Below, piece by piece: positions 2,842-13,109 of a DNA stretch of 13,109 nucleotides. Both the position numbers and the translations under genes were made by a program. The notes beneath the pieces were generated by a model. The model did not search any database and had not been told where the DNA came from. It worked only from the letters and a program-made list of their open reading frames with translations. Location of the stretch: contig JBFMGU010000289.1 of assembly GCA_040752415.1 (NCBI GenBank), positions 1 through 13,109 of the forward strand, read 5' to 3'. How positions within the stretch are numbered: position 1 is the first letter of the stretch; each line of letters starts with the position of its first letter. The stretch comes from Myxococcota bacterium (GTDB lineage: Bacteria; Myxococcota; JACRCW01).

Positions 2842-4590
2842 TCAGCGTTCCGCCGCGGCGAGGACCTCCAGCAGATCGTCGTCGTCAATCCGCTCGTCCT
2901 CGTTGAGGTCCACGAGCGGGTCGTAGCTGCCGTCCACGCGACGCTCATCCGGCACGTAGCCACCCGCGAAGAGGGCCACCTCCATGAGGTCCTCGGCGTC
3001 AACCCGTCCGTCCAGCGTCACGTCACCGAGCACGTCGGGATAGACGCGGCGCACCAGCGTCCACTCCGGGTCCACGCGCACCGCCACCGGCCTGCTGCCC
3101 GTGCTGATGTTGAAGGCGTTCGAGCCCTCCTCCACGTCCGCCACGTCGACGACGGAGGTGCCATCCTCGAGATCAACCACGAGCGGAAGGCGGTAGCTGA
3201 AGTCCCCCTCGCTGTCGACGGAGACCGCCACGGTGTAGCCACTCCCCGCCACGCGCGTGTTGCTGGAGACGGTAAGCGTGGGATGGCCGGTGCGAAGCAG
3301 CCACTGCGAGAACTCCTCGAGGATGCTGCGGCCCGTGGCGTTGTTGATCTCCGCCACCAGTTGCCCCGCCGTCAGCTCGCCGCGCGTGATGAGCGCTCGC
3401 AGCGCCTGGGTCAGTGCTTCCTTTCCCGCCATCTCCTCCAGCGTGCGCAGCACCGAAGAGCCCTTGTGATAGGTCACGTGCACGTACAGCGGTGACTGCT
3501 CCACCTGGGAGTCCAGCACGGCGATGTCGGCGTTGTTGGGACGACGGAACATGTACCAGACCGTGTTCATCCGCACGCCGGCCACGCGCACCGCGTTCCC
3601 CTGCAGCTCACCGAGCGCGCGCCACGCCGAGTACTCCGCGGTGGCCTCCTGCATGAACCCCTTCTCGTAGCTCGTGCACGAGGCAACGCCGCCAAACCAC
3701 GCGTGCGCCAGCTCATGCGAGACGCCCTGCTCCAGCAGGTAGTCCAGATCGCCAATCACGTAATCCCCGAGGAGGACGTTGCCGAGCACGCCCAGCCCGC
3801 CGAACGGGAAGTTCTCCGGCACCGTCATGAGGCGGAACTCGTCGAGCGGGATGGTGCCGTAGGTGGCGCCGTAGATGTCCATCACCTGCGCGCCCAGCCC
3901 CACAGCGTGCGTCATCAACTGCTCCCGCGCGCCACCGGGCACGTAGTAGCCCGCCACCACGGGAGCCTCGCCGGAGCGCACCACCTGCACGCCGCGCGCG
4001 TAGATGACCGGGACCTCGGTGGGGATGTCGACCGTGAAGGACCAGATGCGCGGCCCCACGCCGGTGTCGACGACGCTGGTGGGCGCGCCCTGCCCCGCCG
4101 CAACCTCCAGCTCACGCGGGGCGACCACCACGGTGGTACCGGTGAACAGGTCCACCTCGAACGCGCCCAGGTACGCCCAGGCAAAACGCACCGACGGAGG
4201 CGCCAGGATGGTCTCATCGGGACCGAACACACAGTTCACGAAGCCGGACCCGTCGTTGCGCGCGCAGCTGGGTTGGCCACGCATCACCAGGCGGACCAGC
4301 GTCGTCGCGTCGGCGGCGGGCGCGGTGTCCCAGACCACGTGGGAAACAACGTCGAAGTCCGGGTCATCCTGCAGGCTCGTCACTTCACCGTCGACCTCCA
4401 GCAGTGTCACCGGGAGGGACGGCTTCAACAGCGCGAGGTCAACGCTCTCTCCGTCGCCACGCACGGTGAGCTGCAGGTCGATCACGAGCTCACTGCCGCT
4501 GATGTCCGCGTGGATGTCCTGCCGCTCCACGTCCAGCGCCGCGTGCGCCACCACGGGACACAACAGCAGGACCGGGAGGAGGCGCGTCAT
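2842..4590 (-). CDS. Secreted M1-family (gluzincin) zinc metallopeptidase with a C-terminal dockerin-like module, 582 aa
   Basis: Signal peptide MTRLLPVLLLCPVVAHA; HELAH followed after exactly 18 residues by E (QEATAEY); distal YHKG motif; VRVDPEW motif; duplicated Ca-binding segments GDVTLDGRVDAEDL and DLNEDERIDDDDL. Confidence 0.88.
   Translation of the reverse strand: MTRLLPVLLLCPVVAHAALDVERQDIHADISGSELVIDLQLTVRGDGESVDLALLKPSLPVTLLEVDGEVTSLQDDPDFDVVSHVVWDTAPAADATTLVRLVMRGQPSCARNDGSGFVNCVFGPDETILAPPSVRFAWAYLGAFEVDLFTGTTVVVAPRELEVAAGQGAPTSVVDTGVGPRIWSFTVDIPTEVPVIYARGVQVVRSGEAPVVAGYYVPGGAREQLMTHAVGLGAQVMDIYGATYGTIPLDEFRLMTVPENFPFGGLGVLGNVLLGDYVIGDLDYLLEQGVSHELAHAWFGGVASCTSYEKGFMQEATAEYSAWRALGELQGNAVRVAGVRMNTVWYMFRRPNNADIAVLDSQVEQSPLYVHVTYHKGSSVLRTLEEMAGKEALTQALRALITRGELTAGQLVAEINNATGRSILEEFSQWLLRTGHPTLTVSSNTRVAGSGYTVAVSVDSEGDFSYRLPLVVDLEDGTSVVDVADVEEGSNAFNISTGSRPVAVRVDPEWTLVRRVYPDVLGDVTLDGRVDAEDLMEVALFAGGYVPDERRVDGSYDPLVDLNEDERIDDDDLLEVLAAAER
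2845..3027 (-). other. Dockerin-like domain with two calcium-binding repeats at the peptidase C-terminus
   Basis: GDVTLDGRVDAEDLMEV...DLNEDERIDDDDLLEVL matches the dockerin GD-x-N/D-x-DG-x-V-D-x-x-D-L duplication. Confidence 0.75.
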
Positions 4591-5117
4591 GACTGCCCCC
4601 GCACCACGCGCGCCCCCGCAACCTGCACGGGGACCAGCGCCCCATCCACGCGCCTCACCACGACGTCCTGGATGCCCACCGCGGATTCCCCGTCGACCAG
4701 CGGCTCCACGCGCAGCTCCAGAACCGTGACGGCCCCCTCCAGATGCGCCGGTCCATTGCGCGCACCGGAGCGTGTGCCGCCGAGAGACACGTCGCCCTGC
4801 CGGTCCACGGCAAGCATCACGGCGTCAGGGCCCAGCACGGCGGGTTGTGCACGTCGCACGTCGGTGTCGAGGATGCGCAGGCGCGTCGGGTCGTAACGCA
4901 GGTGGTAGGAGAACCCCAGGATCCCGCCGAGGTCCGTGGCCACCACGCGCAGCGTCACCACGTTGTCCGCGGCTTCTCCCTCCACGTGCAGAGACGGACC
5001 CGCGGGCCTCCCGTCCGACGACACCGACAACATCGCGACCGGAGGAGGAGGCGGCGACGAGCTTCCCTGCGAGCACGCCGCAACCACCAGGACCAGCGTC
5101 AGCAGGACGGGACGCAT
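4587..5117 (-). CDS. Lipoprotein with a cohesin-like beta-sandwich domain, 176 aa
   Basis: Lipobox MRPVLLTLVLVVAA-C, then a Ser/Pro linker (SSSPPPPP), then VTLRVVATDLGGILGFSYHLRYDPTRLRI...GAVTVLELRVEP, resembling the cohesin G-x-x-(F/Y)-x-L-x-YDP-x-x-L pattern. Start ATG at 5117 has GGTGAG upstream; its stop overlaps the peptidase start (ATGA, 4587-4590). Confidence 0.72.
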   Translation of the reverse strand: MRPVLLTLVLVVAACSQGSSSPPPPPVAMLSVSSDGRPAGPSLHVEGEAADNVVTLRVVATDLGGILGFSYHLRYDPTRLRILDTDVRRAQPAVLGPDAVMLAVDRQGDVSLGGTRSGARNGPAHLEGAVTVLELRVEPLVDGESAVGIQDVVVRRVDGALVPVQVAGARVVRGQS

Positions 5118-5269
5118 GGGCTCACCAAGGGTTGGAGACTGTCGACCAGTAGCACGCCGCGCGTCCTGCCCCGCTCCACACACTCTCCACACCGGTGCCC
5201 CGCAGGATTCACCCCGGCGCGCCAGGCGCGTCGCACCCCTTGCATCCCACGTAATTAGACACTAGCTAT

Positions 5270-5284
5270 AAATTTGCCAAATTT
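5270..5284. promoter_or_regulatory. Perfect dyad in an AT-rich divergent intergenic region, candidate regulator site
   Basis: AAATTTG-C-CAAATTT; CCCTTGCA is repeated at 5237-5244 and 5285-5292; it lies about 30 bp upstream of the sigma54 -24 box. Confidence 0.5.
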
Positions 5285-5312
5285 CCCTTGCACTTGAGCC
5301 ACTTACCGCTGG

Positions 5313-5330
5313 GTTGGCATTGCGGTTGCT
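5313..5330 (+). promoter_or_regulatory. Putative sigma54 (RpoN) -24/-12 promoter for the paralog pair
   Basis: GTTGGCATTGCGGTTGCT matches TGGCAY-N5-TTGCW, with GG at 5316-5317, a 10-nt spacer and GC at 5328-5329. A GGAGG RBS (5345-5349) and ATG (5356) follow. Confidence 0.75.
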
Positions 5331-5355
5331 GAGGGGGTTGGCACGGAGGCGTGGC

Positions 5356-7776
5356 ATGAGACGGACCCTGACTGCGCAGGCGGCGTTGGCGTCATACGTC
5401 TGGACACTGGTGCTCTGGCCGGTGACGGCGCGCGCGGAGGAGCGCGTGGCGGAGCCGGGCATCTCGTCGGACGGACAGCCTTGGTACGACGCGTGGTGGA
5501 CGGACGCGAACGCGGACCTGCCCCTGGTTCCGCAGCGGCTGCGTGAGGACCTGGGCAGTGCGCACGCCGACGTGGTGGACGCGTTTGAGCACGGCATCCG
5601 CGTCGGAGACACGCTGGTGGTTCCCGGTGGGCCCGAGCTGAACGCGTTCCTCCGCAAGCACGCCGAGCAGGGGCACATCCAGCTGCGCGACACGGTGGTC
5701 CTCCTCCCCGAGCACCTGCAGGCCGCTCGCGGTGAGCTCTCCGACGCAGCGACCCGCACCGCCCAGGTTGCGAGGGAGAACGCCGCGCACACCGCCCACG
5801 TCGACGAGGAAACGCGCAAGGAGATGGAGGAGAACAGCAAGCAGGCGGATCAGCTCCTCCGGGAGAGCGGTACGCGCGCCGACGCCACCGCCGCCGCCGC
5901 CGTGAAAGAGACCGACGAGGGACTCCGCGTGGCACGCGAAAAGGCGGAGGCGGGGCACCGCGTGGCGACGGAGCAGATGGCTGCGTCGATCGTCGTGCAC
6001 CACCTGGAGAGCACGCATTCCGCACGCGCCCTGGTGAACGCGAGCGCCGACATGGTGCCCCAGCTTGCGCGGTGGACCGCCCAGCAGGGCCCACAGGGTC
6101 TCGACGACACCCAGCGCTGGACCCGCAACGTCGCCACCTCCACCGTGGAGATGGCCACCGACCTGGCGCTGTGGACGGGCGACGGCACGGTGGGCGCGGT
6201 GGAGGACACCCAGCGCGCGCTGCGGACCATTCGCGGGGAAGAACGTCGGGACCAGGCTGCCATCGACGAGAGCGCCGCCGCGCGAACCAACGTGATCAAC
6301 CGCGAGACCGACAGCGCCGTCCGCGTCGTCACGGAGGAAACGTTTGCATACGTGCGCCCCGCGCTGGCGTCGCAGTGGCGCGACTCCCAGCGCGACGCCA
6401 AGGCACTCTGGCAGCTCGGCTACCACGACTACCTCGAGGGCGGGATGCGCCTCGCGGGGGACAACTACTTCGCCGGTGACGTCGAGGGGATCCTGATGGG
6501 GACCGCGTATTCGGTCACCGGCGTCGCGCAGGGGGTGACGCACCTGTTCGTGATCCATCCCATGGCGCAGCTGGTTCACGCCGTGGCCGGAGCGGGCCAG
6601 GCAGGTGGGCTGGCGGCGTTGGGCGTGGGCGGCGTGGTGGTGCAGGCCGGACGCGGAGTGGCTCGTCACGTCGGAAACCAGGTGGCGCGTGTGGGCAGCA
6701 CGGTGGGCAATCACGTCATCTCCCGCGCGCTGGAGGTGGGCACGTTGGGCCTGGGCACGGCGGGCGCCATTGCCACGGCAACCACCGGGACCGTGATGAC
6801 GACGGGTGTGGTGCTCGGCGGCTCCGCGCTCACGGTGGGCGCGGCTGGCGCGGGAGTCACGCGGACCGTCGGTGCCGTGGGCGCGGGAGCGCTTGCCACG
6901 GTGATGGCGCCGAGCATGGGGCTTGCCGCGGGTGGCCTCTTCGTGGGGACGCGCGGGGTGGCGTGGCTGGGGATTGACGTCGTCACTGGAACCCTTCGCG
7001 GCGCGGAGGCGATTGGCACCGGAGCGGCGGAGAGCGTGACGTACGCGGTGACGGGGACCTCTCGCGTGATTGCGGCGCGGGTTGCGGACCTGGCGCTGCG
7101 CATGGGCATCCCGGCGCTGGGCGTGCTGGTGACCGCGGCGCGCTTTGCGCGGGTGGGTGCGGTGGCGGTGGGAGACAACCTCGTCGCCACGCCGCTGGCA
7201 GCGGGCGCACACATGCTGGGCGGGACATTGGGAGCCGGGTGGCAGCTCATCCGTGATCCCATCCAGGGCACCACGCATCTCGTCGTGGGCGCCACGGGAT
7301 ACTCGTTCGGCGTGCTCGGGTTGACCTCGGTGACGACGACGCGCGCGTTCCTCCACGCCCTCGTCGCGTTGGGGGTGGCGAACGTGGAATTCATCCATCA
7401 CGGCGGGAAGCTCGTGGTGAGCGGAGCGGTGGGCGCGTTCGAGAACGTGACGGCGCCCCTGCGCTTTGACCGGCAGAACCAGTGGAAGGCGGAGCGTGAG
7501 CCCCAACTGCGTGAGATGCTGGAACGCCAGCCCCCCGACGTGAAATCCCGCCTGGGCACCGACGTCAGCTACATCCGCGTGGTCTTCTCCGGCCCCGACC
7601 GCGGCAAGGTCCACTTCTTCACGATGAAGATCGACGGGGACCCGGTCCGCTTCTACCGGCACGTGGGCCCCGACTGCGCCATCACCTACCGCAGCGACGG
7701 AAGGAACGCGGAAGTCCTTGATTCCGGCTGGTACGACGTGCGCTGCCAGGCGCAGCACGAAGGGAATGAGCCATGA
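5356..7776 (+). CDS. Large exported hypothetical protein A, 806 aa: helical repeat region, long Gly/Ala/Val-rich hydrophobic region, two-Cys C-terminal domain
   Basis: Long ORF with GC-rich third positions. GGAGG lies 6 nt before ATG 5356. Signal peptide MRRTLTAQAALASYVWTLVLWPVTARA/EE. Paralogous to the next gene and coupled to it by an ATGA overlap. Function not recognised. Confidence 0.85.
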   Translation: MRRTLTAQAALASYVWTLVLWPVTARAEERVAEPGISSDGQPWYDAWWTDANADLPLVPQRLREDLGSAHADVVDAFEHGIRVGDTLVVPGGPELNAFLRKHAEQGHIQLRDTVVLLPEHLQAARGELSDAATRTAQVARENAAHTAHVDEETRKEMEENSKQADQLLRESGTRADATAAAAVKETDEGLRVAREKAEAGHRVATEQMAASIVVHHLESTHSARALVNASADMVPQLARWTAQQGPQGLDDTQRWTRNVATSTVEMATDLALWTGDGTVGAVEDTQRALRTIRGEERRDQAAIDESAAARTNVINRETDSAVRVVTEETFAYVRPALASQWRDSQRDAKALWQLGYHDYLEGGMRLAGDNYFAGDVEGILMGTAYSVTGVAQGVTHLFVIHPMAQLVHAVAGAGQAGGLAALGVGGVVVQAGRGVARHVGNQVARVGSTVGNHVISRALEVGTLGLGTAGAIATATTGTVMTTGVVLGGSALTVGAAGAGVTRTVGAVGAGALATVMAPSMGLAAGGLFVGTRGVAWLGIDVVTGTLRGAEAIGTGAAESVTYAVTGTSRVIAARVADLALRMGIPALGVLVTAARFARVGAVAVGDNLVATPLAAGAHMLGGTLGAGWQLIRDPIQGTTHLVVGATGYSFGVLGLTSVTTTRAFLHALVALGVANVEFIHHGGKLVVSGAVGAFENVTAPLRFDRQNQWKAEREPQLREMLERQPPDVKSRLGTDVSYIRVVFSGPDRGKVHFFTMKIDGDPVRFYRHVGPDCAITYRSDGRNAEVLDSGWYDVRCQAQHEGNEP

Positions 7777-9944
7777 TGCTGCAAACGCTGGCGCTGATGG
7801 CAACGCTGCATGCCGACGTCACGCCCGAGAAGACCTACGAGCAGCCCACGCCGAATCTCGGCGAGAGTGCGGGAGGCGCGCTCGTCGATGAGTCACTGCA
7901 CCACAGCGCGGAGCAACAGGATGCGGCAGCCGACGCGGTGCAGACCATTCCGCGGGCTGCCCACGAAGCCGACGGCATCATGCACGAGGGTGCGTCCCGC
8001 TCGGCCATGCACGCGGACGCCGCTGTCCAGCACGCGCGCGACAGCGTGACCACGTTGCCACGGAGCATGGACAGCATCGGCAACCAGACCGTGGCGACGC
8101 ATCGTCGCGCGGTCGACGCGCGGCTGCACGCGCTGGAGGAATCCCGACTCGCCTGGCGCGCCGCGCACACGCACACCGCCTCGGAAGCCATCGACGCCGA
8201 CGCCCGCGCCGTCATCATCCAGCGCAACACCGAGTCCGCCTACGCGCAGTCGTGGAAGGAGACCGGTGACGCGCTGGCGGAGCGTCGCGCCGCCGCCTTC
8301 TCGCGGGACGACGACATCACCCGCTGGACGCGCGCCCAGGTGGACGCTGGCTGGACCGGAATGACCACGGGAACCGTGGAAAACTGGTACGCCGCCATGG
8401 CCACCACCGGCGCCGTGGCCGCGTCATTCTCCGACGACACCTGGGCCGCCATCCAGGCCATCCCGGCCAACAGCCGCGCGGTGTGGACCGGCACGGAGCA
8501 CGTGGCGCGCGCGGGTTGGGCCGCCACGTTGCGGGATGGACAGCGCGCGTTCACCCTGGGGTCCGGCAACGCGTCCGCGCTGACGACGTGGCTGGCGCAG
8601 AACCAGATGGTCCCTTTCGTCCAGTCGCAACGGGCGATCACGCAGTGGGCGGGCTGGAACACGCAGATGGGTTGGAACAGGGGCGCGCAGGCGGGACTGC
8701 AGAGTGCGTCGCAGGCATGGGAGAACGACGACCAGGTCATGGCCCCGCTGTGGGTGGCGTCGGGCGCGGGCAGGCTGGCACTGCACCTGGGCGTGCTCCT
8801 CCCGACGATCCTTCCGCTCCTCGCCTGCACCGGCTGGGGCGCGGCGCTGGCCCTTCCCGCGCTCGGCTATCCCGCGGTGGCCCTGCTCTACTCGTCGGGG
8901 CTCGCGGGCGCGGCGGGCGCGTACGCGTTGGGCACCGCGGTCACGGGGCTGGTCACCGTCGGTGGCATGACGTTGGGCGTGCTCAGCGCGGGCGCCGGTC
9001 TCCTTCGCGTTGCCGCCACGGCGACCATCGGCATCGTCGCCACCACGGCCACAGCGGCGGGGCTTGCGGCGCTGGTGGGCCTGGCGGCGATGGTGAGCAT
9101 GGCGCAGTGGTTGGGTGCGCCGGCCATCGGGTTGATGGGGCTTGCGGCGTCGTACGCGGCGTGGGGCGCGGAGCGCACGGCGTTGATCGCCTTGCACGGC
9201 GTCAGGGTGGTGGCGGTGACGACGGAGCTGGCGGCGCGCCTGGCGGTGCTTCCGCTGCGGGTGGCGGGCACCGCGCTGTTCCAGGGCACGCGCGCAACCG
9301 GCGTCACCGTCGGAGAGCACCTGTTCGGCGTGCCCGCGTCCGACGTGGCCGGCGTGGCGCAGCTCATGATCACCGCGGCGGTGGCGCTGGGAGAGCACCC
9401 GTTCGGCGCGGTGGTGCGCGGCGGAACGGCGTTGGATGCGCTGGGGCGCGCGTTGGTGTCGTCGGGAATCACGCTGGCGGCGGGAACCGGGGCCGCGGCG
9501 GGAACGGCGTTGGCGCACCACGCGTCCGCGGTGTTCTGGGGTGGTGTGAGCCTGCTGGGCGCGGGGGTGAAGACGGGAGAGTTCGTGCTGGCGGCGGTGG
9601 ATGTCCCGCAGCACCGCGCCTGGGCGGATTTCCGTCGTGAAGAGGTGGATCATGCGCTGGACCGCGCGGAGACGGAGCACCACGCCGCGCTGGGCGACGT
9701 GGCGGTGGTGCGCGTGAACTGGTGGGGTGCGGACGCCGGACGCGTGCGCTTCTTCGTCACGCGCGACCCGGGCACCGGCGAGCGCTGGTACTTCCAGCGG
9801 GTTGTCGACGAGGAAACCTGTGAGGTGCTCTACCGCCGCACCAACCAGGATCCCGTGGCGCGCGCCACCACCGGCGTCACCTGGTCCGGCGTGCATCACA
9901 CCGGCATCTACAACAAGGCGTGCGAGGAACGTCGCGGCGGGTGA
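7773..9944 (+). CDS. Large probably exported hypothetical protein B, 723 aa, paralog of protein A
   Basis: Start overlaps the stop of A (ATGATG at 7773-7778). Short signal-like N-terminus MMLQTLALMATLHA/D, Trp-periodic region, Gly/Ala-rich hydrophobic region, and a C-terminal domain that aligns with that of A. Confidence 0.85.
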   Translation: MMLQTLALMATLHADVTPEKTYEQPTPNLGESAGGALVDESLHHSAEQQDAAADAVQTIPRAAHEADGIMHEGASRSAMHADAAVQHARDSVTTLPRSMDSIGNQTVATHRRAVDARLHALEESRLAWRAAHTHTASEAIDADARAVIIQRNTESAYAQSWKETGDALAERRAAAFSRDDDITRWTRAQVDAGWTGMTTGTVENWYAAMATTGAVAASFSDDTWAAIQAIPANSRAVWTGTEHVARAGWAATLRDGQRAFTLGSGNASALTTWLAQNQMVPFVQSQRAITQWAGWNTQMGWNRGAQAGLQSASQAWENDDQVMAPLWVASGAGRLALHLGVLLPTILPLLACTGWGAALALPALGYPAVALLYSSGLAGAAGAYALGTAVTGLVTVGGMTLGVLSAGAGLLRVAATATIGIVATTATAAGLAALVGLAAMVSMAQWLGAPAIGLMGLAASYAAWGAERTALIALHGVRVVAVTTELAARLAVLPLRVAGTALFQGTRATGVTVGEHLFGVPASDVAGVAQLMITAAVALGEHPFGAVVRGGTALDALGRALVSSGITLAAGTGAAAGTALAHHASAVFWGGVSLLGAGVKTGEFVLAAVDVPQHRAWADFRREEVDHALDRAETEHHAALGDVAVVRVNWWGADAGRVRFFVTRDPGTGERWYFQRVVDEETCEVLYRRTNQDPVARATTGVTWSGVHHTGIYNKACEERRGG

Positions 9945-11251
9945 TCAGAGGAGGTTGGAGGCCAGCTCCGCCAGCTCGCTGCGCTCACCCTTCGACAACG
10001 TCACGTGCCCCGCGATCTTCTCCGCGCGGAACCGGTTCACGATGTGCACGAGGCCGTTGTTGGTGGCGTCAACGTACGGGTTGTCGATCTGGTACGGGTC
10101 ACCGGTGAGGACGATCTTGGTGTCGTCGCCGGCGCGCGTGATGATGGTCTTGATCTCGTGCGGCGTGAGGTTCTGGCTCTCGTCGACGATGATGAACTGC
10201 TGCGGGATGGACCGGCCGCGGATGTAGGTCAGCGGCTCGATCTGGATGATCCCCATGTCGACGAGCTCGTGGTACCCGCGGCCGCCTTTCTTGTCCTTCT
10301 GGCTGAGGCCCATGAGGTATTCCACGTTGTCGTAGATGGGCTGCATCCACGGGTTCAGCTTCTCCTCCACGGTGCCCGGAAGGTAGCCAATGTCGCGCCC
10401 CAGCGGGAACACCGGGCGGCTCACCAGCAGGCGGTGATACGCGCCCTCGTCGGTGACCTTGCTGAGCCCCGCCGCCAGCGCCAGCAGCGTCTTGCCCGTG
10501 CCGGCCTTGCCCACCAACGTCACCAGCTTGATGGCGTCGTTCATGAGCAGGTCCATGGCAAACGCCTGCTCCTTGTTGCGGCTGCGGATGCCCCACACGC
10601 CGTCCTTGGGCTTGCCGATGGGAATGGCCCGCTGCGCCTCCAGGTCCACCTTGCCCAGCGCCGTGTGCGAGGGATTGCCGCGGTCGCGCAGGTGGATGAA
10701 CTCGTTGGGCGAGTAGTACGGGTCCTCCAACTCCAGGTACCCCTGCGAGTAGAAGCGGTCCACGTCCTTCCCGTCCACCTCCAGCTCGCTGTAGCCCGTG
10801 TAGAGCTCGCTCACCTCCACGCTGTCGGTCTCGTACGTTTCCGTCGCCACGCCGTACGCGTCGGCACGGATGCGCAGGTTGGTGTCCATGGTGATGAACA
10901 CCGTGCGGATGTCCGGCCGCTTGTCGCGCACGTCCATGGCACAGCCCAGGATCTTGCTGTCCATGTCGCGGTCGGGGGAGGCCTCACCGGGGAGCTTCAA
11001 CGTCGTGAACACCACGCGCAGCGTCCCGCCCTTGTCAAGCTTCACACCGTCGGAGAGATGGCCCTCCTCGCGCAGGTCGTCCAGGTACTTGGAGACGCGT
11101 CGTGCGTTGCGGCCACGTTCACTCTGCTCCTTCTTGAACGCGTCCACCTCCTCGATGCAGTAGATGGGAATGACGACGTCATTGTCCTCGAATGAGAAGA
11201 TTGCGCGGGGGTCATGCAGCAGCACGTTGGTGTCGAGGACGTATTGTTTCT

Positions 11252-11255
<4 letters not shown>
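9945..11255 (-). CDS. phoH2: PIN-PhoH fusion protein (PhoH2 type; PIN RNase plus PhoH ATPase/RNA helicase), 436 aa
   Basis: N-terminal PIN motif YVLDTNVLLHDP; Walker A GKAGTGKT; GYLPGTVEEKLNPW, YIRGRS, Walker B IIVDESQN, GDPYQID and C-terminal ERSELA. Confidence 0.93.

Positions 11256-13109
<1,854 letters not shown>

What the first reader, a model, noticed from the sequence alone, without database searches (positions are those of the whole stretch)
5356..9944. Coupled pair of large paralogous exported proteins with long Gly-rich hydrophobic cores: candidate new two-component membrane-active system
Seen in the sequence: two translationally coupled genes behind a sigma54-type promoter with the same architecture. 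Each has a signal-like N-terminus, an Ala-rich amphipathic region, about 300 aa of Gly/Ala/Val/Thr-rich hydrophobic sequence with many small-xxx-small motifs (about 6490-7440 and 8735-9600), and a polar C-terminal domain. They align by eye: FAYVRPALASQWRDSQRDAKALWQLG with WTGTEHVARAGWAATLRDGQRAFTLG, AVAVGDNLVATP with GVTVGEHLFGVP, and QWKAEREPQLREMLER with AWADFRREEVDHALDR. Established knowledge: bipartite alpha-pore-forming toxins such as XaxAB/YaxAB are coupled gene pairs encoding structurally related helical proteins, and glycine zippers drive helix oligomerisation in membranes. Inference: A and B form a hetero-oligomer that inserts into or bridges membranes (pore, conduit or fusogen), possibly for predation or cell contact. 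I cannot assign them to a known family.
Basis: partly seen in the sequence, partly recalled or inferred. Interest (0 to 1): 0.85.

Follow-up and report, generated by a model that had tools for sequence, protein, structure and literature searches.

The report
Paired exported 11-residue-repeat helix proteins
Two neighbouring, related genes encode large exported proteins of a very rare, unnamed family built from 11-residue helical repeats like those of lipid-coating proteins; what they do is unknown, but they most likely act together on a lipid or membrane surface outside the cytoplasm.

Summary
The two genes are real: A 5356-7776 (806 aa) and B 7773-9944 (723 aa) overlap in ATGA behind a sigma-54-type promoter (5315-5330). 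They are paralogues (BLASTP E 3e-8). An exhaustive profile search of 1.84 billion protein representatives found 27 relatives, and no Pfam, NCBIfam, PHROG or PDB family matched. Relatives split into an A clade and a B clade (100/100). A is followed by B in all 4 genomes whose DNA I could read.

The "glycine zipper" reading fails: GxxxG and small-xxx-small are not enriched over composition. Instead, both the charged N-terminal half and the roughly 300-residue uncharged core carry an 11-residue periodicity (lags 11, 22, 33). The core motif is [V/T]-G-x-x-A-x-G-x-x-x-T. A's core is too weakly hydrophobic for ordinary transmembrane helices.

Both proteins have signal-like N-termini. Their C-terminal alpha+beta domain (pLDDT 89) holds two invariant cysteines.

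Best reading: an exported A/B hetero-oligomer that lays giant, weakly polar helices onto or into a lipid surface. Whether it coats or permeabilises is open. No similarity to XaxAB/ClyA toxins was found. The family is new and its function is inferred, not shown.

The parts
5270..5284 (.). AT-rich perfect palindrome AAATTTG-C-CAAATTT, 31 nt upstream of the -24 element. It is a candidate regulator or bending-protein site; this is inferred only.
   Evidence: arms of 7 nt, 100% complementary, 1 nt apart; sequence
5315..5330 (+). Sigma-54-type promoter TGGCAT-N5-TTGCT (-24 GG, -12 GC). It ends 25 nt before the ATG of A.
   Evidence: the only match in the window, 0.02 expected.: a like element, TGGCCC-N5-TTGCT, lies 26 nt before the ATG of the A-type gene in G001 and is the only match with <=1 mismatch in 20 kb.: RpoN is present in both genomes.: no sigma-70-like site in 5000-10100.
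5346..5350 (+). Shine-Dalgarno GGAGG, 5 nt before the ATG of A
   Evidence: sequence read
5356..7776 (+). Gene A, 806 aa, the A-type member of the pair
   Evidence: 100% match to P0003; A clade in the tree
5356..5436 (+). A signal-like N-terminus MRRTLTAQAALASYVWTLVLWPVTARA (aa 1-27; ends A-R-A before EE)
   Evidence: 2 basic residues, then a hydrophobic stretch. All 18 full-length members have such a segment. No signal-peptide predictor was available.
5443..5700 (+). A small N-terminal alpha/beta domain (aa ~30-115), conserved in A-type and in low-GC B-type members
   Evidence: pLDDT about 68-80 in this stretch; alignments
5713..6390 (+). A charged amphipathic helical half with 11-residue periodicity (aa ~120-345)
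   Evidence: BLOSUM autocorrelation z for A is 4.2 at lag 11 and 3.4 at lag 33; the family mean is 3.3/2.7/2.9 at lags 11/22/33.: weak profile matches to apolipoproteins A-I, A-IV and apolipophorin-III (E 0.007-0.015).
6403..6561 (+). A conserved junction (aa ~350-402): LW.lG...l.gG...A.D..FAGD.EG ... .P, with G355 and D375 invariant
6562..7455 (+). A near-uncharged Gly/Ala/Val/Thr core (aa ~403-700) made of hendecads [V/T]-G-x-x-A-x-G-x-x-x-T. Conserved R503, D607-N608...P613 and D634-P635.
   Evidence: (Gly at i,i+11: 20 observed against 10.3 +/- 2.7; 0 of 1000 shuffles as high), (sequence wrapped at 11)
7456..7773 (+). A C-terminal alpha+beta domain (aa ~701-806) with invariant W710, R714, R741, G746, G750, R768 and the Cys pair C774/C797
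   Evidence: model pLDDT 89, pTM 0.77: two helices, a five-stranded sheet, one helix
7773..9944 (+). Gene B, 723 aa, the B-type paralogue. Its ATG overlaps the TGA of A (ATGA).
   Evidence: B clade in the tree
7773..7814 (+). B short hydrophobic N-terminus MMLQTLALMATLHA (aa 1-14). It is signal-like but has no basic residue.
8760..9587 (+). B near-uncharged core (aa ~330-605). It is richer in Leu than A's core, and the 11-residue signal is weaker than in A.
   Evidence: Gly lag-11 z 1.8; z 2.1; two windows of transmembrane grade, 393-411 and 419-437
9588..9941 (+). B C-terminal domain (aa ~606-723), homologous to that of A, with the Cys pair C683/C717

Best explanation
A and B are an ancient, always-adjacent pair of paralogous proteins exported through Sec. 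They most likely work as a hetero-oligomer on a lipid surface outside the cytoplasm.

Each chain is built almost wholly on an 11-residue repeat (3 helical turns per 11 residues, a '3-11' helix). The parts, in order:
- a small alpha/beta head;
- about 230 residues of charged amphipathic hendecads;
- a conserved junction;
- about 200-300 residues of nearly uncharged hendecads, [V/T]-G-x-x-A-x-G-x-x-x-T. Two glycine stripes lie about 130 degrees apart and flank a narrow Thr/Arg face, opposite a broad Ala/Val/Leu face;
- a disulfide-bonded alpha+beta domain.

Proposed mechanism, all inferred. Both chains cross the inner membrane, because the core is too weakly hydrophobic to stop transfer. They then pair, and the long, weakly polar helices fold onto or into a lipid surface: a membrane leaflet, a vesicle, or a neutral or hydrophobic lipid phase. 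The charged half and the C-terminal domain stay in water and give specificity. Expression depends on sigma-54 and an unknown activator.

Shown here: the genes, their coupling, their paralogy, the conserved pairing, the periodicity, the composition and the promoter motif. Inferred: export, hetero-oligomer formation, lipid binding, and any physiological role.
For: PAIRING
- BLASTP of A against B gives E 3e-8.
- The A and B clades are each supported 100/100.
- The order is A then B in 4 of 4 readable genomes: ATGA overlap in G000 and G401, GTGA in G001, and a 13-nt spacer with GGAG in G466.
- Two more pairs share contig lengths.

EXPORT
- 18 of 18 full-length members have an N-terminal hydrophobic segment.
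- Two cysteines in the C-terminal domain are invariant in 26 of 26 aligned sequences. They are the only cysteines in 12 of 18 members.

PERIODICITY
- Gly-Gly spacing has mean z of 2.5, 1.6 and 1.7 at lags 11, 22 and 33 over 18 proteins. Lag 4 is depleted, at -0.9.
- BLOSUM autocorrelation has mean z of 3.3/2.4/2.5 in the core and 3.3/2.7/2.9 in the N-terminal half.
- The register is visible when the sequence is wrapped at 11.
- Wheel positions were tabulated.
- Hydrophobicity power peaks at 3.6-3.7 residues, at 2x the shuffles, with no peak at 2.

WEAK HYDROPHOBICITY
- On a translocon-type scale (values recalled, simple sum over 19 residues), A has 0 windows <= +3 kcal/mol and B has 2.
- Controls: an AI-2E transporter has 7, a Yip1 protein 4, a PBP anchor 1, and two soluble proteins 0.

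ANALOGY
- 11-mer repeats form lipid-induced 3-11 helices in apolipoproteins, alpha-synuclein and perilipins. The giant helix of perilipin 4 is enriched in Thr, Gly and Val and coats neutral lipid (PMC5889406, passages read).
- The family profile gives weak matches to apolipoproteins A-I, A-IV and apolipophorin-III (E 0.007-0.015).

NO ENZYME SIGNATURE
- The invariant residues are G, P, D, E, R and C only.
Against: - No experiment and no homologue of known function stands behind any step.
- The apolipoprotein matches are below significance and may be purely compositional.
- The core has far fewer charges (6-7.5% DEKR) than known lipid-surface 11-mer helices, so it need not behave like them.
- B and several high-GC relatives have segments hydrophobic enough to span a membrane.
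- The 3.67-residue hydrophobicity peak is also the third harmonic of an 11-residue repeat, so it does not by itself prove a helix.
- The AlphaFold model of the core has low confidence (pLDDT 27-50).
- B's own signal-like segment is short and lacks a basic residue.
- The genomic neighbourhood gives no consistent functional hint.
Confidence: 0.45

Rival explanations
1. Two-component alpha-helical pore-forming toxin. A and B are secreted, meet on a target membrane (prey or competitor), and their hydrophobic helices insert together to form a pore.
For: - The conserved, translationally coupled pair of structurally related helical proteins resembles bipartite toxins in gene layout.
- Both proteins have signal-like N-termini.
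- Marginal hydrophobicity is what a secreted protein that inserts later would need.
- In G001 two RHS-repeat proteins lie directly upstream.
- The window's phylum is sampled mostly by large genomes. That it is Myxococcota, with a predatory lifestyle, is my inference, not a tool result.
Against: - No Pfam hit of any kind in 18 of 18 members at E <= 1, so none to ClyA/HBL-type families. There are no PDB sequence relatives either.
- The proteins are about twice the size of the ClyA-type components I recall. Their hydrophobic part is a repeat array of about 300 residues rather than one hairpin.
- GxxxG is not enriched.
- The RHS neighbours occur in 1 of 4 loci. No immunity-like small gene and no secretion-system gene is conserved next to the pair.
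Confidence: 0.2
2. Integral envelope complex. A and B are polytopic inner-membrane proteins whose N- and C-terminal domains both face the periplasm. They form a heteromeric channel, scaffold or periplasm-spanning structure of the producer itself.
For: - Roughly 300 residues have 6-7.5% charged residues.
- B has two windows of transmembrane grade (393-411 and 419-437), and several high-GC relatives have one or two.
- With an exported N-terminal half and a disulfide-type C-terminal domain, an even number of spans would fit.
- The two glycine stripes about 130 degrees apart would suit helices that each pack against two neighbours.
Against: - A and all four low- or mid-GC A-type relatives have no window <= +1, and A has none <= +3, whereas real membrane proteins scored 4-7 such windows.
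- The 11-residue register runs unbroken through about 100 residues with no loop-like breaks or conserved prolines between P402 and P613.
- The core has no conserved polar or charged network typical of transporters.
Confidence: 0.15
3. Extracellular surface-active or structural coat. The pair assembles outside the cell into a hydrophobic layer or fibre (as hydrophobins or chaplins do), for example on developmental structures, under sigma-54 control.
For: - The sigma-54-type promoter is conserved in the two related large genomes.
- The proteins are exported, rich in Gly/Ala/Val/Thr and repetitive.
- No catalytic residues are conserved.
Against: - No similarity to any known coat or amyloid family.
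- There is no 2-residue (beta) periodicity.
- Relatives occur in genomes of 4.6-5.1 Mb whose lifestyle is unknown, and the G401 locus lacks the sigma-54 motif.
- No cell-surface sorting signal could be seen at the C-termini (by eye).
Confidence: 0.1

Closest known systems
11-mer-repeat amphipathic-helix lipid binders (apolipoproteins A-I/A-IV, apolipophorin-III, alpha-synuclein, perilipins, especially the giant helix of perilipin 4)
   Same: - An 11-residue periodicity runs over hundreds of residues.
- The core is rich in Thr, Gly and Val with low hydrophobic moment, as described for perilipin 4 (PMC5889406, passages read).
- The N-terminal half gives weak profile matches to apolipoproteins (E 0.007-0.015).
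   Different: - Homology is not significant.
- These proteins carry signal-like N-termini and a disulfide-type domain, so they act outside the cytoplasm of a bacterium.
- They come as a paralogous pair.
- The core has about half the charge density given for perilipin 4 (5 charges per 33 residues; here 6-7.5%).
- Glycine occupies two fixed positions per hendecad.
- Lipid binding is untested.
Bipartite alpha-pore-forming toxins of the ClyA superfamily
   Same: Two adjacent, co-transcribed genes encode related, mostly helical proteins with a hydrophobic part.
   Different: - No sequence or profile similarity.
- Length is 723-806 aa, and the repeat core is about 300 residues.
- Sec-type N-termini.
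- A C-terminal disulfide domain.
- The fold search of the low-confidence full model gave only generic coiled coils (best Z 11.5, below the tool's stated noise level for helical models).
Glycine-zipper membrane proteins and toxins (GxxxGxxxG)
   Same: A glycine-rich, weakly polar helical region.
   Different: The defining i,i+4 spacing is absent. GxxxG is at or below shuffle level, and Gly lag 4 has mean z -0.9 against +2.5 at lag 11.

Membership tests
ClyA-type bipartite alpha-pore-forming toxins (XaxAB/YaxAB) | Sequence or profile match to a described toxin family | tested here: not met
   No Pfam family for A or B at E <= 0.01. 0 of 18 members match any toxin family at E <= 1. There are no NCBIfam or PHROG hits and no PDB sequence relative.
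ClyA-type bipartite alpha-pore-forming toxins (XaxAB/YaxAB) | Elongated helical bundle with a single hydrophobic head or hairpin (recalled) | tested here: inconclusive
   The full-length model has pLDDT 57.8 overall and 27-50 in the core. The fold search returned only generic coiled coils, Z <= 11.5.
ClyA-type bipartite alpha-pore-forming toxins (XaxAB/YaxAB) | Two adjacent genes for related subunits | tested here: met
ClyA-type bipartite alpha-pore-forming toxins (XaxAB/YaxAB) | Synergistic membrane permeabilisation by the two subunits | not testable with these tools
   Needs purified proteins and liposome or cell assays.
Glycine-zipper helices | Enrichment of GxxxG / small-xxx-small spacing | tested here: not met
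   A has 9 GxxxG against 10.5 +/- 2.6 and B has 4 against 6.9 +/- 2.2; small-xxx-small is 53 against 48.5 in A and 49 against 51.3 in B.: lag-4 mean z is -0.9.
11-mer-repeat (3-11 helix) lipid-binding proteins | 11-residue periodicity over long stretches | tested here: met
   The signal for B alone is weaker: z 1.8-2.1 at lag 11 in the core and 4.0 at lag 33 in the N-terminal half.
11-mer-repeat (3-11 helix) lipid-binding proteins | Homology to apolipoprotein, perilipin or synuclein families | tested here: inconclusive
   The profile against PDB sequences gives ApoA-IV at E 0.0073 and ApoLp-III and ApoA-I at about 0.014-0.015, interleaved with designed helical proteins. There is no Pfam hit.
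11-mer-repeat (3-11 helix) lipid-binding proteins | Lipid-induced folding and binding | not testable with these tools
   Needs circular dichroism and binding assays.
Polytopic inner-membrane proteins | Several segments hydrophobic enough for translocon-mediated insertion | tested here: inconclusive
   A has 0 windows <= +3 and B has 2; control membrane proteins have 4-7 and soluble ones 0. The scale values were recalled and the sum is crude.
Sec-exported proteins | N-terminal signal peptide | tested here: inconclusive
   By inspection, 18 of 18 members have an N-terminal hydrophobic segment, and 9 of 18 have basic residues before it as the sequences were called; one of these, P0006, loses them if it starts at its likely GTG. 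No dedicated predictor was available. The two invariant cysteines agree with export.
Sigma-54-dependent promoters | -24 GG and -12 GC elements at fixed spacing upstream of the gene, in a genome that has RpoN | tested here: met
   An activator gene and its binding site were not identified.

The most novel reading that the evidence does not exclude
A bacterial, extracytoplasmic counterpart of apolipoproteins and perilipins. The A/B heterodimer would wrap or coat hydrophobic lipid outside the cytoplasm with giant, nearly uncharged 3-11 helices. Possible targets are membrane-derived particles, vesicles, or neutral or polycyclic lipids. The pair would then package, stabilise or shuttle lipid across or beyond the envelope. 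No such class of bacterial proteins is known to me; I ran no dedicated literature search for one (the one related term search returned a single paper, on a eukaryotic protein).
Probability: 0.15. Interest if true: 0.85.

Novelty: categorically new. Interest (0 to 1): 0.6.

Why it matters
If the reading holds, this is a protein architecture not described in bacteria. It would be an exported, obligately paired pair of about 750-800-residue chains made of 11-residue repeats, whose core is a nearly uncharged Gly/Ala/Val/Thr helix hundreds of residues long. It would offer a natural model for how very weakly polar giant helices recognise lipid surfaces. It might also reveal a way to handle lipid, or attack membranes, outside the cytoplasm.

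The family is extremely rare: 27 representatives among 1.84 billion proteins. Its ecological weight is therefore probably small, and the value lies in mechanism and in protein design. Even the negative result is useful. A Gly-rich hydrophobic region with many small-xxx-small motifs need not be a glycine zipper, and testing against composition changed the reading here.

Tried and rejected
- Family libraries: Pfam, NCBIfam and PHROGs gave nothing for A, B or their relatives.
- PDB by sequence: nothing for A. For B there was one chance-level antibody hit, E 0.32.
- ESM Atlas: no usable hit for A or for the third protein P0033.
- Word-indexed homology search: A found itself and P0004 (2 proteins passing among 7998 scored). 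B found only itself (1 among 8000).
- Collection scans:
  - Alignments A2 and A4 were too variable for a scan (errors).
  - Genome contigs with A3: 34 pattern matches, 2 confirmed.
  - Metagenome contigs with A3: 54 pattern matches, 0 confirmed.
- Full-length AlphaFold model of A: pLDDT 57.8. Its fold search gave only generic coiled coils.
- C-terminal domain model (pLDDT 89): Foldseek against PDB gave no hit at E <= 0.001. VIA-align wide had best Z 4.0 and none >= 5. The viral library gave none at E <= 0.001. Weak rows to type IV pilins, cystatin-like and NTF2-like folds were not pursued.
- Complex prediction of A 340-806 with B 290-723: no verdict (score 0.01 against a mark of 0.32). This is not evidence either way.
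- Sequencing runs: none was listed and there was no RNA holder.
- Earlier findings of this scan: nothing by place or by sequence. One malformed word query was not repeated.
- Hopanoid link: HpnA, HpnH, type-2 IPP isomerase and a mevalonate-kinase-like gene follow B on the same strand in G401. This holds in 1 of 4 loci; G466 has unrelated genes there. I do not use it as evidence.
- Third gene: a 653-669-aa protein precedes A in G401 and G466 (40% identity). It was not found in G000 or G001 with that query.
- Weak N-terminal-half matches in G033, G177 and G236 (E 1.7e-8 to 1.9e-6). I read only the G177 one: a protein with charged 22-residue repeats, which I take as compositional, not family membership. 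The other two were not examined.
Full report
WHAT IS THERE

The window is a whole 13,109-bp contig of an 11.0-Mb draft genome (520 contigs, 96.8% complete) with about 69% G+C. The two large same-strand ORFs of the finding are real. A runs from the ATG at 5356 (behind GGAGG at 5346-5350) to 7776 and encodes 806 aa. B runs 7773-9944 and encodes 723 aa. The start of B overlaps the stop of A in ATGA.

The flanking genes are unrelated and mostly on the other strand:
- a short-chain dehydrogenase, a Ser/Thr kinase and an OmpH/Skp-like protein;
- an M1-type peptidase (2842-4590, minus strand);
- a lipoprotein-like protein of unknown family (4587-5192, minus strand);
- downstream and convergent, a PIN-PhoH protein (PhoH2, 9945-11255) and a GAF-GGDEF protein (11252-13087).

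PROMOTER

TGGCATtgcggTTGCT at 5315-5330 is the only match to the sigma-54 consensus in the window. 0.02 matches are expected by chance, and 4 of 200 shuffles gave at least one. No sigma-70-like site or intrinsic terminator was found between 5000 and 10100.

In the one related genome that has the pair (G001), TGGCCCggcagTTGCT lies 26 nt before the ATG of the A-type gene. It is the only match with at most one mismatch in 20 kb. Both genomes encode RpoN. The two A proteins are only about 32% identical, so this is conservation of a signal, not of sequence. A third locus (G401) has no such element in front of its operon. A perfect AT-rich palindrome, AAATTTG-C-CAAATTT, lies at 5270-5284. Its role is unknown.

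PARALOGY AND FAMILY

A and B align at E 3e-8 (25% identity over 330 residues), and a genome-wide search with B finds A at E 3.7e-9. Neither protein matches Pfam, NCBIfam, PHROGs or any PDB sequence.

A profile of five members was scored against all 1,835,955,588 cluster representatives. It found 27 proteins at E <= 0.001, 26 of them at E <= 1e-10, and then nothing. Seventeen hits are full-length. Nine are C-terminal or N-terminal pieces from short contigs. One, P0030 at E 8e-4, looks unrelated.

A maximum-likelihood tree of 18 full-length sequences splits them into an A clade of 8 and a B clade of 10, each supported 100/100. No rows were dropped from those 18; the fragments were not included. 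The duplication is therefore older than all known members.

IS THE PAIR A UNIT?

In every genome whose DNA I could read (4 of 4), an A-type gene is followed directly by a B-type gene on the same strand:

| Genome | Junction between A and B |
|---|---|
| G000 (this window) | ATGA overlap |
| G001 | GTGA overlap |
| G401 | ATGA overlap |
| G466 | 13-nt spacer with GGAG; the rest of B lies on the facing end of another contig |

Two further A/B pairs (P0004 with P0012, and P0009 with P0014) are each recorded on contigs of identical length, 48,210 and 66,146 bp. This suggests they share a contig, but I could not read them.

The family is sparse:
- A alone matched in 2 of 61 genomes, G000 included.
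- The family profile found true members in 2 of 401 genomes of the window's phylum. Three further genomes gave only weak N-terminal matches at E 1.7e-8 to 1.9e-6.
- Among G401 and its relatives, 2 of 101 genomes hold it.

In G401 and G466 a third gene for a 653-669-aa protein (40% identical between the two) ends 3-15 nt before A. Its family has only 7 members in the word-indexed search. It was not found in G000 or G001 with that query.

ARCHITECTURE

All 18 full-length members begin with a hydrophobic segment. In 9 it is preceded by basic residues as the sequences were called; one of these, P0006, loses them if its likely GTG start is used. In the window's B it is short (MMLQTLALMATLHA) and has none.

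A 26-sequence alignment shows a well conserved C-terminal domain with two invariant cysteines. Twelve of the 18 full-length members have no other cysteine. Folded alone with that alignment, the domain gives a confident model (pLDDT 89, pTM 0.77) of two helices, a five-stranded antiparallel sheet and a short helix. No solved or viral structure matches it above noise: Foldseek gave none at E <= 0.001, and VIA-align's best Z was 4.0.

The full-length model of A is poor (pLDDT 57.8). It has a small alpha/beta domain at about residues 30-115 and long helices elsewhere, with the core at pLDDT 27-50. Its fold search returns only generic coiled coils. Residues invariant across the family are G, P, D, E, R and C, which does not look catalytic.

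THE CORE IS NOT A GLYCINE ZIPPER BUT A HENDECAD ARRAY

Against 1000 shuffles of each core they are not enriched:

| Motif | A observed | A shuffles | B observed | B shuffles |
|---|---|---|---|---|
| small-xxx-small | 53 | 48.5 +/- 4.4 | 49 | 51.3 +/- 4.0 |
| GxxxG | 9 | 10.5 | 4 | 6.9 |

What is enriched is Gly at i,i+11. In A it occurs 20 times against 10.3 +/- 2.7, and 0 of 1000 shuffles were as high. In B it occurs 10 times against 6.5 +/- 2.1, with 85 of 1000 as high.

Over the 18 proteins the Gly-Gly spacing has mean z of 2.5, 1.6 and 1.7 at lags 11, 22 and 33, and -0.9 at lag 4. Individual values reach 6.0. A few high-GC members (P0007, P0018, P0019, P0017, P0026) show little signal.

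Wrapped at 11 residues, the cores line up by eye as [V/T]-G-x-x-A-x-G-x-x-x-T for about ten rows without a break. Substitution-matrix autocorrelation peaks at lags 11/22/33 in the core (mean z 3.3/2.4/2.5). It peaks equally in the charged N-terminal half (3.3/2.7/2.9), where hydrophobicity also shows the 4-7-11-15-18-22 series of a helix.

Hydrophobicity power in the core peaks at 3.6-3.7 residues, at twice the shuffles, with no peak near 2. This fits a helix, but it is also the third harmonic of an 11-residue repeat.

I placed the repeat on an 11/3 wheel, choosing windows by their glycines, so positions 1 and 6 are circular. The two glycine stripes lie 131 degrees apart. The rare Arg/Lys sits between them (position 9), Thr flanks them, and Ala/Val/Leu fill the other face.

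The family profile gives weak matches in its N-terminal half to apolipoprotein A-IV (E 0.0073) and to apolipophorin-III and apolipoprotein A-I (about 0.014-0.015), among designed helical proteins. This is suggestive of the same repeat type but not significant.

IS THE CORE TRANSMEMBRANE?

I summed a translocon-type hydrophobicity scale over 19-residue windows. Twelve of 18 family members have no window <= +1 kcal/mol, and none has a window <= 0.

I calibrated the method on proteins from these loci at a threshold of +3:
- an AI-2E transporter: 7 windows;
- a Yip1-domain protein: 4;
- a PBP membrane anchor: 1;
- two soluble proteins: 0;
- A: 0 (its best windows are 3.6-4.8);
- B: 2 (393-411 and 419-437).

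So A's core is less hydrophobic than ordinary membrane helices, and B's is in part at that level. With a signal-like N-terminus and a disulfide-type C-terminal domain, the simplest reading is that the chains are passed across the inner membrane rather than stitched into it. The test is crude, and for B it is open.

HOW IT MOST LIKELY WORKS

Long 11-residue repeats are the hallmark of helices that fold on lipid surfaces: apolipoproteins, alpha-synuclein and perilipins. The giant helix of perilipin 4 is, like this core, rich in Thr, Gly and Val and weakly amphipathic, and it coats neutral lipid directly (PMC5889406; I read passages found by term search, not the whole paper).

My best explanation, at confidence 0.45, is that A and B are exported, pair with each other, and lay their long, weakly polar helices onto or into a lipid surface in or beyond the envelope. 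The charged half and the C-terminal domain would remain in water. The ancient split into two clades, the fixed gene order and the overlapping start and stop codons argue for a 1:1 partnership, but binding was not shown. What the surface is, and whether the result is coating or permeabilisation, I cannot tell.

Rivals:
- a two-component pore-forming toxin (0.2);
- an integral envelope complex of the producer (0.15);
- an extracellular surface-active coat (0.1).

Genomic context does not discriminate between them:
- RHS-repeat proteins lie upstream in G001 only.
- Hopanoid and mevalonate-pathway genes lie downstream in G401 only.
- Unrelated genes lie there in G466 and in the window.

COMPARISON WITH KNOWN SYSTEMS, AND NOVELTY

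The pair shares with XaxAB/YaxAB-type toxins only the layout of two related helical proteins. Sequence membership was tested and not met, and the size and the repeat core differ. It shares its periodicity and composition with the 11-mer lipid binders, but not demonstrable homology, cellular compartment, charge density or pairing. The defining spacing of the glycine-zipper class was tested and not met.

I therefore file it under no known family and rate it as categorically new at the level of protein family and architecture. The caveat is plain: its function is inferred from sequence statistics alone, and the family is very rare.

WHAT WOULD SETTLE IT

Localisation and extraction behaviour, A-B co-purification, lipid-induced folding and leakage assays, a structure of the complex, and mapping of the sigma-54 transcript. 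The field on next steps gives details.

Noticed in passing
window 2842-5192 (minus strand): An M1-family peptidase (582 aa; Peptidase_M1 E 9.4e-15) has a weak C-terminal dockerin-like match (E 0.003, below Pfam's cut-off). Its start overlaps by 4 nt the end of a 201-aa ORF with a lipoprotein-like N-terminus (MRPVLLTLVLVVAAC) and no family match. This could be a surface-anchored partner pair.
   Followed up: partly
window 9942-9947 and 11252-11255: B's stop codon (9942-9944) abuts the stop of the convergent PIN-PhoH (PhoH2-like) gene (9945-11255), leaving no intergenic base. That gene in turn overlaps a GAF-GGDEF gene (11252-13087) by 4 nt. No terminator-like site was found.
   Followed up: partly
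window 5270-5284: A perfect 15-bp AT-rich palindrome, AAATTTG-C-CAAATTT, lies in a 69% G+C genome between the divergent lipoprotein-like gene and the sigma-54-type promoter of A.
   Followed up: partly
L006 7828-9789 (G401); L023 16-2025 (G466): A third conserved gene for a 653-669-aa protein with a signal- or lipoprotein-like N-terminus sits directly upstream of the A-type gene in two genomes (40% identity). Its family has only 7 members in the word-indexed search. One of them lies on a contig of the same length (23,104 bp) as an A-type protein. It was not found in G000 or G001.
   Followed up: partly
L018 24-4152 (G401:C371, minus strand): Directly downstream of the B-type gene, on the same strand, lie HpnA (455 bits), HpnH (547 bits), a type-2 IPP isomerase (372 bits) and a mevalonate-kinase-like gene (162 bits, just under the cut-off). 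This hopanoid/isoprenoid cluster is seen at 1 of 4 loci.
   Followed up: partly
L005 2-5674 (G001): Two RHS-repeat/YD-shell proteins and a protein with a ClpX-type zinc finger lie upstream of the A-type gene in G001. A SAM synthetase lies downstream on the other strand.
   Followed up: no
L010 1444-3447 (G177): A 667-aa protein with tandem charged repeats of about 22 residues (VVGGVANxTxNVVEGAKDKAGD-like) gave a weak match (E 6e-7) to the N-terminal half of the family profile. It is probably another 11/22-residue-repeat helical protein, not a family member.
   Followed up: no
L006 (record title shown) and G401: The record that holds L006 is labelled as a candidate-division WWE3 bin. The genome behind it is given as 5.1 Mb and carries mevalonate-pathway and hopanoid genes, which seems large for that label. 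The bin may be mislabelled or mixed.
   Followed up: no
L022 2131-5099 (G466): Topoisomerase VI subunits A and B are encoded side by side about 8 kb from the B-type gene in a bacterial genome.
   Followed up: no
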